From NCBI GenBank assembly GCA_964252035.1, contig OZ176203.1: DNA of 64,000 nucleotides. One strand, written 5' to 3'. Position numbers: made by a program. Source of the stretch: Podarcis erhardii (taxonomy: Eukaryota). Position 1 is the stretch's first letter; each line of letters opens with the position of its first letter. Positions 29,301-32,300 of the stretch are shown here, in pieces.

Positions 29301-32300
29301 CCATGATGTACACAGAATTGGTACACAACCTGATGGTTGCCATATTTCAGTACTCCCAATTAAGGTTGTCTGAAAAGGGCTGCAAGTGGTCTTGTCCTTG
29401 AAAGAGCAAGACCCTTCTCCCCCTCTCTCTCCAGCTGCTGGTCAGATCTGTGGCTATTGAGCAAAGCCGTGTTTGGGGGAGCTTTATTTAGCAGCCTTTA
29501 AGAATCCGAGCTCTAAATCTTTCAGTGAAGTCCAAGAGAGGATTTGAGAATTAACTCGCCTTGAATGAGCCTCACTATCTCTCCTCTATTTTTCTTTGGC
29601 TGTGTTCAGCAGTTTTGTAGATCAAAGAGCCTTCAAGTTTTAAAGCAGAACACTCTGCTTACTGCTCTTTTCCCTCCTACCCCAAAGTTGTTTGTGGCTT
29701 ACATTTCTATGCGACCTACTGCCAGCACGCCTCCCAATGCCATCATCGATGCCTCAGAAAAAAAAAAAATAGTTACAATCAGCAATCAGAAAAACATTGT
29801 CTCTGTGTTGGTTAATTATTTTAGGAACGATTATTCAATTTAATTGAGGCTGTGAGGATCATTAAGATTCCAGCTGCTGGAAGGGTTTGCTGCTGAACCT
29901 TCAAGCTTCTCCTTTTGAAATATGTTAGGGTTGTTTCAAAGATTTTGAAAGCGCAAAACACCCTCGTTTCTTCACCATTATGCCCCATTCAAGAAGAATT
30001 GGTACACAACTGCTTGGTGGTTTAATCACAGCGGTTTAGTGCCTAAGTATAGAACAAGAGAACCAGAACTTGGGACACCCTGAGAAGATTTTGTTGAAGA
30101 TTTATTAAGGTTGCAGTCTTAACACCACTTACCTGGGAGTAAGCCCCACTGAATTCAGTAGGAGTTACTTCTGAGTAGTTACAGTTAGGTATGCACTGTA
30201 ACCTATTACTCAAAACTTCAAATTCACCTACAGTATGTAACACTCACCAAAACCTTTTTGGTTTTTGGACCTCTTCTGTCCTATCCATCAGTGTTCTCTC
30301 TCTCCCTCCCTCCCCCCCTCTCTCTGGATAATGCTTTTTCTTGAGAAAGTGTTGCATAGTTTTCTTGCATATTCAGTGGGATACGTGGATTGTAGAGGGT
30401 TCTTAATTCTAAGACCCTTGGGTATAATGTCCAGGTTCTTGCATTTAGTAAGAAAGAAGATATCAGTCTGTACCTGTGCAAGTTTCTTGGTGAGGTTGAT
30501 GGACTTCCATTTCACGCGGCTCAATGTGGTGCCTTCCATAGTTCCAGTTACAGATAGGTAGCCGTGTTGGTCTGCCATAGTCAAAACAAAACAAATTCCT
30601 TCCAGTAGCACCTTAAAGACCAACTAAGTCAGTTCTTGGTATGAGCTTTCGTGTGCATGCACACTTCTGAAGAAGTGGTATCTGAAGAAGTGTGCATGCA
30701 CACGAAAGCTCATACCAAGAACTGACTTAGTTGGTCTTTAAGGTGCTACTGGAAGGAATTTGTTTTGTTTTGACTATGGCAGACCAACACGGCTACCTAT
30801 CTGTAACTGGAGCTTTTTCTTGAGACATTCTTTCCTTTCAGAGGTGAGCTATACAATCAGCAGAATTATATGGCGAGCTCTTTCTAGACTGTCCTGCTTC
30901 AGCTTGTAAAGTGGGTTGGGAGCTTATCCCCCCCACCAATAAAAGTGCCTGGTGCATAAAATGACCCCTTAATAAACTACAAATTGTGATGAAGGCAGAT
31001 TTTTAAAGCAGTGTTTTTGTAACAAAAAAAGAAACTGTTACAATTATAATTAGTACGCAGTCAATCCAGCCATCGCCTCCCTTCTTCTAGTTGGTATAAA
31101 CAGCTGAATAATTTTTTACATGGTCTTCTAAGGCTGTGGTGCTCACTGCTTGGTGCAGAGCTCCTTAAAGAGGTAAATCATCTTAAGCTGCAATGGGTGT
31201 AAGCATGAAATATGAAGTGGGATTGAGGTAAGACCTGTCTTTGTCCCCTCTTTCTGCCGTTTGTGAGCTTTTCACTGGGTGTTCCATTGTTAATACTGTA
31301 TAACGCATTCTGTTTTCAGTGGTCTTCCTGCCCATCTCCTTTCCTTATGAATGGCGAAGTTGTTTGCATATCTGTACTGCAGCATCATTAAATATGGGTA
31401 CTCTTGTGAGCTTCTTTGACATAAATGACTGGTTGTTTGTGCAGGACCGTTTGAAGTTGTGTCAGCAAAGCAGATCACCTATAGACAAGAAAGAATGATC
31501 ACTAATTGTAGCCTGAGTCAACTCATGCTTATACAATTGATTTACCATTTAGCTGCTCTTTGAGATGGAAATCCATAAATAACATTAAGTTTCTTTTTAA
31601 AAGCTCTCACACAGTATCATTATCTCAGTAATGAATGTTGATTGTGCGATGGGGGGGGGGAGGAACGTACAATTTTCGTTTTTAAATACCCCTTTCTGTG
31701 TCTTTTAAACGGGAGGCATTTGCAGTGAGGGTGATTTTTGCTGTTCACCCTTGACATTAGTTGTTTTGGTCATGTGTCGTCGTCCCCCCCCCCGGTCCAG
31801 ATTCTACAAGGAATTGCCACAAACGCCTACAACCCAATGTACAGGCCCATCTTCCACACACTGACCACTAGGCATTTGGGTAGTAGTAGTAGTAGACAAA
31901 TTTTGAGGGTAGGCCAAAGCATAATACCTGCCAGTCTACAACCAGTAACCTGTAATCCAAACCTCCACCATCATTTTTCATTTTTGGCCAGGGAGGGTAA
32001 TGAATCTTAGCAGGGAACCCCCACCCCCTTGGTTTTCCCTCGGAGTCAGAATATATGGCAGAGTTCACTGACGTACTATTTGTTTTTCAATGGAAAAGTG
32101 GCATCTGCTTATTTGGAAACATAATACCCCTGGCTGTTTGGTTTCCTTCAAATACATTTCTAAGCAGCTAAACTGCTTTGAGTCACAACTTTTTTTGTTT
32201 TTGATTAAACAGCCATATGCTTCCGAATGGAACAGTCTCAGTTGTTATATTAAATTTGTAGATGACTCGCTACCTTACAAAACTCAATTACCTCACATCC

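What the first reader, a model, noticed from the sequence alone, without database searches (positions are those of the whole stretch)
30333..30825. Very young Penelope insertion: perfect 126-bp fold-back centred on the ribozyme core, with a 14-bp TSD
Seen: arms 30543-30668 and 30686-30811 have no mismatches, the spacer is 17 nt, the TSD is exact, and the ORF N-terminus is open on the minus strand. The + arm keeps the full ribozyme. The minus arm starts inside CUGAAGA and is therefore disabled. In the DDX10 pre-mRNA this should form a long perfect dsRNA stem (ADAR or Dicer substrate), and in DNA a cruciform-prone palindrome.
Basis: partly seen in the sequence, partly recalled or inferred. Interest (0 to 1): 0.65.

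Follow-up and report, generated by a model that had tools for sequence, protein, structure and literature searches.

The report
Head-to-head Penelope repeat pair in DDX10 intron
This is a real, recent but structurally ordinary insertion of a Penelope-like retrotransposon fragment, two ribozyme-bearing terminal repeats joined head to head, inside an intron of a lizard DDX10 gene.

Summary
Arms 30543-30668 and 30686-30811 are perfectly complementary over 126 nt, the spacer is 17 nt, and an exact 14-bp target duplication flanks a 465-bp insert.

The insert is a truncated Penelope-like element (PLE). Its 65 open codons on the minus strand match the N-terminus of an 881-aa protein that has reverse transcriptase and GIY-YIG domains. 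A minimal hammerhead motif is complete on the + arm and truncated on the other arm. Rfam's hammerhead models do not detect it.

The insert lies in a ~34-kb intron of DDX10, on the + strand. The exons are 95-100% identical to DDX10 of lacertid lizards, so this is not human sequence.

The fold-back is not special to this copy. A second insertion with the same head-to-head layout and its own 12-bp duplication lies at 36323-36604. Inverted pseudo-LTRs with junction palindromes are a described PLE hallmark.

My favoured mechanism is reverse transcription primed from both nicked target strands, with the two cDNAs joined just upstream of the ribozyme. This is inferred, not shown. "Very young" is consistent with the data but only loosely bounded. 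The ADAR, Dicer and cruciform consequences are predictions only. Interest is low to moderate.

The parts
30333..30346 (.). Left copy of the 14-bp target-site duplication (GCTTTTTCTTGAGA)
   Evidence: Identical to 30812-30825 and found only at these two places in the window.
30347..30811 (.). Whole 465-bp insert: an ORF-less head-to-head pair of PLE pseudo-LTR fragments
   Evidence: Bounded by the duplication. Within the window, its sequence matches only itself and the second copy at 36335-36592.
30347..30539 (-). First 65 codons of the PLE ORF (ATG at 30539-30537), cut off at the target junction at +193 from the A of the ATG
   Evidence: Open frame. phmmer found 75 proteins at E<=1e-3 and 27 at E<=1e-10. 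It is 46% identical to residues 6-62 of the 881-aa P0060, which has RVT_1 and GIY-YIG. tblastn of P0060, P0070 and P0003 hits only this place in the window.
30543..30668 (-). Arm 1: pseudo-LTR 3' part, sense on the minus strand, continuous with the ORF. Its hammerhead (30668-30638) lacks the first four core bases and the helix I 5' strand.
   Evidence: It fails the min-HHR descriptor.
30669..30685 (.). 17-nt junction (GAAGAAGTGGTATCTGA). Its right part (GGTAT+CTGA) belongs to the + strand hammerhead. Its left part repeats the GAAGAAGTG of the ribozyme.
   Evidence: (direct repeat D4).
30686..30811 (+). Arm 2: the same pseudo-LTR part, sense on the + strand, ending 4 nt before the position of the ATG
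30677..30716 (+). Complete minimal type-I hammerhead motif. Helix I 30677-30681 / 30712-30716; CUGAAGA 30682-30688; unpaired A 30689; palindromic helix II 30690-30703; GAAA 30704-30707; predicted cleavage after C30711.
   Evidence: Descriptor hit at 30682-30711, with 0 of 200 simulated windows giving any hit. The minimum-energy fold of the 48-nt RNA forms helices I and II. The features match the published min-HHR description. No Rfam hammerhead hit.
30812..30825 (.). Right copy of the 14-bp target-site duplication
36323..36604 (.). Second, independent head-to-head insertion of the same element. Insert 36335-36592; 12-bp duplication AATACTGGCTAT at 36323-36334 and 36593-36604; arms 36376-36477 / 36495-36596; complete hammerheads on both strands (36502-36531 + and 36470-36441 -).
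20833..20892 (+). DDX10 exon upstream of the host intron (residues 729-748 of Lacerta agilis DDX10, 20 of 20 identical)
55282..55404 (+). DDX10 exon downstream of the host intron (residues 749-789 read as identical in the printed alignment). The start coordinate is computed from that alignment, not from a splice-site analysis.

Best explanation
**What it is (near certain).** A 465-bp dead-on-arrival insertion of a Penelope-like retrotransposon, in a ~34-kb intron of DDX10 of a lacertid-type lizard. It consists of two copies of the 3' part of the element's pseudo-LTR joined head to head. Each copy begins at or just upstream of the minimal hammerhead. One copy continues 193 nt into the ORF. There is no RT or endonuclease coding sequence, so it cannot move on its own.

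**How it arose (inferred).**
1. The PLE endonuclease made a staggered cut 14 bp apart.
2. Both exposed 3' ends primed reverse transcription internally on PLE RNA, near the pseudo-LTR/ORF junction. The start sites were +193 and -4 here, and +3 and -43 in the neighbouring copy.
3. Both cDNAs ran towards the RNA 5' end and through the uncleaved hammerhead.
4. Their 3' ends were joined a few nucleotides upstream of the ribozyme, by a short microhomology or a template jump. The junction shows TCT/AGA and a re-copied GAAGAAGTG.
5. Fill-in synthesis then gave two arms copied from the same RNA species, plus the target duplication.

**What it does now (inferred).** Nothing for the host. In the + strand pre-mRNA the complete hammerhead is predicted to be locked in a perfect hairpin of about 129 bp. 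That makes the site a candidate for A-to-I editing and for palindrome instability.
For: **Identity**
- ORF homology.
- Hammerhead descriptor: 3 hits in the window, 0 of 200 simulated windows with any hit.
- Target duplications.
- DDX10 exons on the + strand on both sides.

**Mechanism**
- Both insertions have the geometry expected of two converging cDNAs. The antisense arm sits on the left and the sense arm on the right, the element 5' ends meet in the middle, and the element 3' ends abut the target.
- The two junctions differ in sequence and the four outer ends differ, so each junction was made at integration.
- Two of the four outer ends (-4 on a right arm, +3 on a left arm) fall within 7 nt of each other. 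This is as expected if both sides use the same preferred RT start region.
- A purified Anolis PLE protein cleaves and extends both target strands. It starts reverse transcription internally at sites not homologous to the target, and it uses RNA uncleaved by the hammerhead (PMC11167929, main text read).
- Inverted 5'-truncated copies and inverted pseudo-LTRs with target duplications are described as typical of PLEs (PMC8557442, PMC3846280 and PMC2377424, passages).
- The 48-nt hammerhead RNA is predicted to prefer a homodimer: -42.0 against 2 x -12.5 kcal/mol. This is compatible with two templates in one particle.
Against: - No full-length copy of this family was available, so the native sequence upstream of the ribozyme is unknown. 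I cannot say whether the arms end at the RNA 5' end.
- Dual priming needs two template molecules, or re-use of one, because the arms overlap completely. This was not shown.
- Short palindromes sit at both junctions: CACTTCT-GA-AGAAGTG in copy 1, and 12-nt arms at 36459-36470 / 36476-36487 in copy 2. That is what the rival self-priming model predicts.
- The clustering of outer ends rests on 2 of only 4 ends.
- The in vitro data come from a different PLE family, whose hammerhead overlaps the start codon. Here it lies about 130 nt upstream of the ATG.
- Rfam does not recognise the hammerhead, and no cleavage assay exists for it.
Confidence: 0.6

Rival explanations
1. Self-priming (snap-back). Only one target strand primed a cDNA, which became the longer arm. 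At the end of the template its 3' end folded back on a short palindrome in or next to the ribozyme and copied itself for about 90-130 nt. It then joined the other target end.
For: - Short palindromes lie exactly at both junctions.
- The ribozyme's helix II is itself a perfect 14-nt palindrome.
- Arkhipova et al. 2013 inferred self-priming from palindromes at inverted PLE junctions (PMC3846280, passage).
- In both insertions the shorter arm is fully contained in the longer one, and all arms are identical.
Against: - It does not explain why a right-arm end (-4) and a left-arm end of another insertion (+3) nearly coincide.
- Both junctions carry 9-19 nt that are not part of a simple hairpin turn.
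- A PLE protein has been shown to extend both strands in vitro, which makes a second primer available.
- Arkhipova et al. note that head-to-head products by self-priming would need an antisense template.
Confidence: 0.22
2. Inherited fold-back. The head-to-head junction already existed in a source element. It was copied as such, through a read-through RNA or by DNA-level duplication, so nothing happened at the ribozyme during this integration.
For: - Both copies share GAAGAAGTG immediately left of the sense arm. That could be native sequence.
- Full PLEs commonly carry an inverted pseudo-LTR upstream.
Against: - The two junctions differ: 17-nt spacers of different sequence, one arm truncated inside the core in copy 1, and both cores complete in copy 2.
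- Each insertion has its own target duplication and its own outer ends.
- Copying would require reverse transcription through a perfect hairpin of about 100-130 bp.
Confidence: 0.1
3. Assembly artefact. The inversion is a chimeric or collapsed long-read product and the real locus holds a simple truncated PLE fragment.
For: - The literature notes that tandem and inverted PLE structures cause assembly problems.
- Perfect palindromes are a known product of some library artefacts (general knowledge).
Against: - The arms are unequal, 322 against 126 nt.
- The spacer is not palindromic.
- The exact 14-bp duplication flanks the whole structure.
- A second insertion has the same layout but different ends, a different junction and a different duplication.
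Confidence: 0.03
4. A hairpin gene or another inverted-repeat element: a microRNA precursor, or a MITE or foldback DNA transposon.
For: Sub-threshold Rfam matches to several microRNA precursor families over the hairpin. The best is mir-559, at 62 bits against a gathering score of 95.
Against: - All such matches are far below the gathering scores, on both strands, as any long hairpin would give. At gathering thresholds nothing is found here.
- The ends of the insert are not inverted repeats of each other. The left 196 nt are coding sequence of a PLE.
Confidence: 0.02

Closest known systems
Canonical endonuclease-containing Penelope-like elements with an inverted pseudo-LTR (for example Pen2a of Adineta vaga, and the common Drosophila virilis Penelope form)
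   Same: - Head-to-head inverted pseudo-LTRs.
- A short palindrome or overlap at the inverted junction.
- A short target duplication (8-10 bp reported there; 14 and 12 bp here).
- A pseudo-LTR that runs a short way into the ORF.
- A hammerhead in the pseudo-LTR.
   Different: Here the body of the element (ORF plus downstream pseudo-LTR) is absent. Only the two inverted pseudo-LTR pieces were inserted, and one arm runs 193 nt into the ORF. The clade (Penelope/Poseidon, Neptune or other) was not determined.
PAc, the Poseidon-type PLE of Anolis carolinensis studied in vitro (Frangieh et al. 2024, PMC11167929)
   Same: - A squamate host.
- Insertion ends lie near the pseudo-LTR/ORF junction rather than at a fixed RNA 3' end.
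- The template is not cleaved by the hammerhead.
- Both target strands can serve as primers, which predicts exactly this head-to-head product.
   Different: - In PAc the hammerhead overlaps the start codon. Here its core lies about 130 nt upstream of the ATG.
- PAc start sites are 111-118 nt into the ORF. Here the four ends are at +193, +3, -4 and -43.
- No sequence comparison with PAc was possible.
Minimal hammerhead ribozymes of metazoan PLEs (Cervera and De la Pena 2014, PMC4209133)
   Same: - CUGANGA and GAAA boxes.
- An unpaired base between positions 9 and 10.1, and a G10.1-C11.1 pair.
- A long helix II and a short helix I (5-6 bp in copy 1, 4 bp in copy 2).
- No real helix III, with a palindromic 15.2-16.2 pair.
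- Paired motifs on opposite strands 100-700 bp apart were also seen in Schistosoma.
   Different: - Helix II plus its loop is a perfect 14-nt palindrome. The predicted dimer is held by that duplex rather than by helix III.
- Activity is untested.
- Rfam's hammerhead models do not detect it.
Twin-priming inversions of LINE-1 (recalled from general knowledge; no paper read for it)
   Same: Both nicked strands prime cDNA synthesis. The product is an inverted 5' segment joined by microhomology to a direct 3' segment, within one target duplication.
   Different: In LINE-1 the two segments come from adjacent, essentially non-overlapping parts of one RNA. Here the arms overlap completely (126 of 126 nt) and both start near the element's 5' region.

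Membership tests
Penelope-like element (endonuclease-containing PLE) insertion | Coding sequence homologous to the PLE polyprotein (N-terminal domain, then RT, then GIY-YIG endonuclease) | tested here: met
   The 65-codon fragment hits 75 proteins at E<=1e-3. Of the 24 hits given to Pfam, P0060 (881 aa) aligns at its residues 6-62 (46% identity). P0060 has RVT_1 above cut-off (40.2 against 29.6 bits) and GIY-YIG above cut-off in its C-terminal 142 residues (24.7 against 22.6 bits). P0070 has RVT_1 below cut-off. Of the other 22 hits, 11 have no family, 5 carry host-gene domains and 6 are repeat proteins that are probably compositional matches.
Penelope-like element (endonuclease-containing PLE) insertion | RT and GIY-YIG domains present in this copy | tested here: not met
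   Only 65 codons are present. tblastn with P0060 finds nothing else in the window. No PLE-type RT was found among 629 of 629 open frames of 45 aa or more. This is a truncated fragment, not an autonomous element.
Penelope-like element (endonuclease-containing PLE) insertion | Pseudo-LTRs, direct or inverted, often as an inverted 5'-truncated copy, flanked by a target duplication | tested here: met
   Head-to-head arms and a 14-bp duplication. The same layout with a 12-bp duplication at 36323-36604. Definition.
Penelope-like element (endonuclease-containing PLE) insertion | A 30-40 bp tail present at one end only | tested here: inconclusive
   One arm is longer than the other at its outer end, by 197 nt in copy 1 and 46 nt in copy 2. 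Without a family consensus the tail cannot be delimited.
Minimal type-I hammerhead of PLEs | Core boxes CUGANGA and GAAA, H at position 17, an unpaired base after A9, a G10.1-C11.1 pair, helix I of 4 bp or more, a palindromic 15.2-16.2 pair | tested here: met
   My own descriptor finds 3 sites (30682-30711 +, 36502-36531 +, 36470-36441 -). 0 of 200 simulated windows gave any hit.
Minimal type-I hammerhead of PLEs | Match to a curated hammerhead covariance model | tested here: not met
   No hammerhead family at E<=10 in 30000-31200 or in 30672-30740, and none at gathering score in the whole window. The published min-HHRs were likewise found with a special descriptor.
Minimal type-I hammerhead of PLEs | Self-cleavage | not testable with these tools
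   Needs an in vitro transcription and cleavage assay. Published PLE hammerheads cleave poorly alone and better as dimers or with the element's protein.
LINE-1-type twin-priming inversion | The inverted and direct segments derive from adjacent, non-overlapping parts of one template RNA | tested here: not met
   The shorter arm is wholly contained in the longer one (126 of 126 and 87 of 87 nt). The process may be alike, but the product is not of the LINE-1 type.
microRNA precursor | Score at or above an Rfam gathering threshold | tested here: not met
   The best match is 62 bits against 95 (mir-559). All others are lower, and they occur on both strands. None at gathering thresholds.
DDX10 intron (host context) | DDX10 exons on the same strand on both sides of the insert | tested here: met
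   The frame 6864-7037 (+) hits 364 proteins at E<=1e-3. The top six are lacertid DDX10 at 98% identity. tblastn with Lacerta agilis DDX10 gives hits at 3437-3496, 6867-7031, 20833-20892 and 55198-55404, all on the + strand. Pfam found no helicase domain in 629 open frames, because only the C-terminal, domain-free exons lie in the window.

The most novel reading that the evidence does not exclude
The two template RNAs of a PLE particle may be held together by their hammerhead regions. Minimal hammerheads only fold as dimers, and here helix II is a perfect 14-nt palindrome with a strongly favoured predicted homodimer. In that case the ribozyme would work mainly as a dimerisation and 5'-end module. 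It would make the two cDNAs primed from the two target strands converge and be joined just upstream of it. ORF-less head-to-head pseudo-LTR pairs like these two would then be the minimal footprint of that reaction. They would also form a class of non-autonomous PLE products that yield perfect hairpin RNA wherever a host gene reads through them.
Probability: 0.1. Interest if true: 0.6.

Novelty: already known. Interest (0 to 1): 0.25.

Why it matters
**For the genome.** This is an ordinary recent transposon insertion. It may be useful as a presence/absence marker, and it warns that inverted PLE structures are real and not misassemblies.

**For PLE biology.**
- The two neighbouring ORF-less head-to-head pairs are clean natural footprints. 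They could be compared with the in vitro finding that a squamate PLE protein primes from both target strands.
- A genome-wide census of such pairs could discriminate dual priming from self-priming.

**For the host.** A perfect intronic hairpin of about 129 bp in DDX10 pre-mRNA is a plausible A-to-I hyper-editing site and a site of palindrome instability. Neither effect is shown.

Tried and rejected
1. **Rfam for a hammerhead.** No hit at E<=10 in 30000-31200 or in the isolated 69-nt stretch, and none at gathering score in the whole window. Only sub-threshold microRNA-hairpin matches appeared, which I reject as generic hairpin scores.
2. **Word-indexed protein search, longer proteins, with the ORF fragment.** 5 candidates, none significant. 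The exhaustive phmmer search then found relatives.
3. **Pfam on whole-frame translations.** The tool rejected the input because it contained stop codons. I replaced it with all 629 stop-to-stop frames of 45 aa or more.
   - No DEAD, Helicase_C or DUF4217 match was found.
   - Only a sub-threshold RVT_1 at 1003-1497(-) and three weak chance matches appeared (DUF3915, NrsF, HTH_9).
   - The DDX10 exons were found instead by scanning for charged open frames, a named-protein search of one frame, and tblastn with a lizard DDX10 protein.
   - The exons were handled one by one. I built no joined spliced model.
4. **Cluster look-up for names of the PLE-like proteins.** The sources and names of P0060, P0070, P0003, P0005 and P0002 therefore stay unknown.
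5. **Other copies in the window.** blastn finds only the four arms. No full-length reference for the family could be obtained. The native sequence upstream of the ribozyme, the family's copy number and the orthologous empty site were not checked.
6. **Microhomology between target and element at the four outer junctions.** Inspected by eye. The only hint is at the left end of copy 1, where the protein alignments run 3 residues into the duplication. I judge this too weak to use.
7. **Supplementary files of the papers are closed.** Supplementary figures of PMC4209133 (reptile hammerheads) and PMC11167929 (genomic insertion ends) may already show this family or its start sites.
8. **Complex prediction, structure prediction and fold search** were not used, because no claim here depends on them.
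Full report
**1. The observation**

- Positions 30543-30668 are the exact reverse complement of 30686-30811, 126 of 126.
- The spacer 30669-30685 is 17 nt.
- The 14-mer GCTTTTTCTTGAGA flanks the structure at 30333-30346 and 30812-30825 and occurs nowhere else in the window on either strand.
- With mismatches allowed, the repeat reaches 134 nt with 7 nt between the arms.
- The window has no N.
- As single-stranded RNA the region folds at -267.5 kcal/mol, against -92.2 +/- 5.0 for shuffles; 0 of 100 shuffles fold as well.
- As DNA it folds at -165.4 against -31.6 +/- 3.8; 0 of 200 shuffles fold as well.

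This is far beyond chance.

**2. What the insert is**

*ORF fragment.* On the minus strand an ATG at 30539 opens a frame that stays open for all 65 codons up to the target junction.
- A word-indexed search for longer proteins found nothing.
- An exhaustive phmmer search of 1.84 billion representatives found 75 proteins at E<=1e-3 and 27 at E<=1e-10.
- I gave 24 of those 75 hits to Pfam, choosing the longer or multi-stretch ones.
  - P0060 (881 aa) has RVT_1 above cut-off.
  - P0070 (494 aa, apparently truncated) has RVT_1 below cut-off.
  - 11 hits have no family.
  - 5 hits carry host-gene domains (WD40, homeodomain, Ig, histone deacetylase, DUF4371). These are most simply gene models that swallowed a fragment of the element.
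  - 6 hits are repeat proteins matched in many short stretches, probably compositional noise.
- P0060 aligns to the fragment at its own N-terminus (46% identity, residues 6-62).
- The last 142 residues of P0060 match GIY-YIG above cut-off (24.7 against 22.6 bits).
- An N-terminal domain followed by RT and then a GIY-YIG endonuclease is the architecture that defines endonuclease-containing Penelope-like elements (PMC8557442 passages; PMC11167929 main text).

The fragment does match.

*Ribozyme.* Rfam finds no hammerhead. There is nothing at E<=10 in 30000-31200 or in the isolated 69 nt, and nothing at gathering score in the whole window. The only matches over the hairpin are microRNA precursor models far below threshold, on both strands. 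Any long hairpin would give these.

The published PLE hammerheads are "minimal" motifs that were themselves found with a special descriptor. Their features are:
- a long helix II;
- a helix I of 4-5 bp;
- an unpaired base between positions 9 and 10.1;
- a G10.1-C11.1 pair;
- no real helix III, and a palindromic 15.2-16.2 pair.

(PMC4209133, parts 1-2 of 4 read.)

I wrote those criteria as a descriptor. It hits 30682-30711 (+), 36502-36531 (+) and 36470-36441 (-). None of 200 simulated windows gave any hit.

The 48-nt RNA 30675-30722 folds on its own into helices I and II. On the minus-strand arm of the reported insertion, identity to the element starts at the fifth base of the box. The four bases before it read CTTC instead of CTGA, and the helix I strand is missing. 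That copy fails the descriptor.

It rests on motif criteria, not on a curated model or an assay.

**3. Host context**

Pfam found no helicase domain in any of the 629 stop-to-stop frames of 45 aa or more.

A scan for charged open frames pointed to 6864-7037 (+). That frame hits 364 proteins at E<=1e-3. The top six are DDX10 of Zootoca vivipara, Lacerta agilis and Podarcis lilfordi at 98% identity. The entries labelled Homo sapiens are at 76%.

tblastn with the named Lacerta agilis protein gives four + strand pieces:

| Window position | DDX10 residues | Identity |
|---|---|---|
| 3437-3496 | 656-675 | 95% |
| 6867-7031 | 674-728 | 98% |
| 20833-20892 | 729-748 | 100% |
| 55198-55404 | 724-789 | 70% overall; residues 749-789 (about 55282-55404) read as identical |

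- Only domain-free C-terminal exons lie in the window, which explains the Pfam blank.
- The insert therefore lies in the ~34-kb intron between 20892 and about 55282, and the pre-mRNA is the + strand.
- I treated the exons one by one and built no joined spliced model.
- I take the window to be from a lacertid-type lizard, not human. Besides the exon identities, PLEs are reported absent from mammals.

**4. The fold-back is the family's normal form**

The ribozyme sequence occurs four times in the window. The other two copies belong to a second insertion at 36335-36592.
- It has its own 12-bp duplication, AATACTGGCTAT, at 36323-36334 and 36593-36604.
- Its arms are 36376-36477 and 36495-36596.
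- blastn finds no further copies in the window.

All six pairwise comparisons of the four arms show 0 differences, over 126, 132, 87, 126, 87 and 87 nt.

Both insertions have the same geometry.
- The left part is antisense and the right part is sense.
- The element 5' ends meet in the middle, and the element 3' ends abut the target.
- Relative to the A of the ATG, the outer ends are +193 and -4 (first insertion) and +3 and -43 (second insertion).
- The centres of symmetry lie 5 nt (first) and 16 nt (second) upstream of the CUGAAGA boxes.

The literature describes exactly this arrangement.
- In Adineta vaga an inverted pseudo-LTR completes the insert. It is flanked by a 9-bp duplication, overlaps the direct one by 15 bp, and has palindromes at the junction; head-to-head is the most frequent form (PMC3846280).
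- The commonest Drosophila virilis form is flanked by inverted repeats (PMC2377424).
- In Schistosoma, paired minimal hammerheads occur 100-700 bp apart on opposite strands (PMC4209133).

What is slightly unusual here is that the ORF body is missing altogether. Only the two pseudo-LTR pieces went in.

**5. How it most likely arose**

*What is shown.* The two junctions were made separately.
- The spacers differ in sequence.
- One core is truncated in the first insertion, and none is truncated in the second.
- The outer ends and the duplications differ.

*What is inferred.* Both 3' ends of a staggered cut primed cDNA synthesis internally on PLE RNA, near the pseudo-LTR/ORF junction. Both cDNAs ran through the uncleaved ribozyme. 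Their 3' ends were then paired and filled in.

The first junction reads as follows. The antisense arm ends in ...CACTTCT. Then comes GAAGAAGTG, and then GTATCTGAAGA... of the sense arm. This allows a 3-nt TCT/AGA overlap between the two cDNA ends. Both insertions carry GAAGAAGTG at the same place. That sequence is either native sequence upstream of the ribozyme or a re-copied piece of the core. I cannot tell which without a full-length copy.

*Support.*
[quoted passage not shown] It starts reverse transcription internally at sites not homologous to the target, with no difference between the strands. It is unaffected by ribozyme mutations (PMC11167929).
- A right-arm end (-4) and a left-arm end (+3) nearly coincide. 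This is expected if both sides use one preferred start region. It is only 2 of 4 ends.
- The ribozyme RNA is predicted to homodimerise strongly through its palindromic helix II: -42.0 against 2 x -12.5 kcal/mol. This would suit two templates in one particle. It is a prediction only.

*Main rival.* The main rival is self-priming of a single cDNA on the short palindromes that do sit at both junctions, as Arkhipova et al. proposed. I rate dual priming at about 0.5-0.6, self-priming at about 0.2, an inherited junction at about 0.1, and an assembly artefact at a few per cent.

**6. Age and consequences**

- The intact duplications, the open frame and the zero differences among four arms fit recent activity of the family.
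- At an assumed round rate of 1e-9 substitutions per site per year, 126 perfect pairs exclude only ages above roughly 12 million years at 95%. Arm-to-arm gene conversion could also erase differences.
- The orthologous empty site could not be examined.
- In the + strand pre-mRNA the complete ribozyme of the right arm is predicted to be locked in a perfect duplex of about 129 bp with a 7-nt loop. Self-cleavage there is unlikely.
- Long perfect intramolecular duplexes are classical ADAR substrates, and long palindromes are classically unstable in DNA. Both statements are general knowledge, and nothing here tests either.
- The second insertion adds a similar hairpin, with arms of about 102 nt, 5.5 kb further along the same intron.

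**7. Verdict**

The finding is real and correctly interpreted. It is an instance of a known structural hallmark of a known transposon class.
- Novelty: already known as a kind.
- Interest: about 0.25.
- Its use is as a clean pair of natural footprints for the still open question of how PLEs make inverted structures.

**8. What stayed unchecked**
- Any copy of the family outside the window, and a full-length reference. No eukaryotic genome collection was open.
- Names and sources of the PLE-like proteins (unavailable).
- Paper supplements, which are closed.
- Reads, transcripts and small RNAs.

Noticed in passing
window 36323-36604: A second head-to-head insertion of the same PLE pseudo-LTR in the same DDX10 intron. 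Insert 36335-36592, 12-bp duplication AATACTGGCTAT. Both hammerheads are complete. The junction has a 12-nt-arm palindrome (36459-36470 / 36476-36487).
   Followed up: yes
window 30295-30326 and 36180-36259: Both insertions lie next to pyrimidine-rich or dinucleotide microsatellites. A CT/C-rich run ends about 6 bp before the first duplication. A (TC)n(TG)n(CA)n run ends about 63 bp before the second. A microsatellite insertion bias is reported for some PLE clades. Two cases prove nothing.
   Followed up: partly
window 30690-30703 (also 30651-30664, 36449-36462, 36510-36523): Helix II of the hammerhead, including its loop, is a perfect 14-nt palindrome. The 48-nt ribozyme RNA is predicted to prefer a homodimer held by a 14-bp intermolecular duplex: -42.0 against -25.0 kcal/mol for two monomers.
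   Followed up: partly
window 3437-3496, 6867-7031, 20833-20892, about 55282-55404 (+): Four C-terminal exons of DDX10, 95-100% identical to Lacerta agilis DDX10. None carries a Pfam domain, so domain scans of the window see no gene at all.
   Followed up: yes
window 1003-1497 (-): An open frame with a sub-threshold RVT_1 match (23.3 against 29.6 bits). It is not PLE-like (E = 0.6 against P0060). Probably a LINE remnant.
   Followed up: partly
window 463-681 (-), 16645-16920 (-), 17756-18457 (-): Three open frames share a long, closely similar arginine-rich C-terminal stretch. They have no Pfam match. They look like copies of one LINE family's ORF end; from memory they resemble the RTE/Bov-B type. 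Not tested.
   Followed up: no
window 44927-44999 (+): The only Rfam hit at gathering score in the window is tRNA, at 32 against 29 bits. ARAGORN finds no tRNA there. It is probably a tRNA-derived SINE head or a pseudogene.
   Followed up: partly
window 5364-5966 (-): A 201-aa open frame rich in W, C and K, with a CxxC...C pattern and no Pfam match. Possibly the end of a LINE ORF2. Not examined.
   Followed up: no
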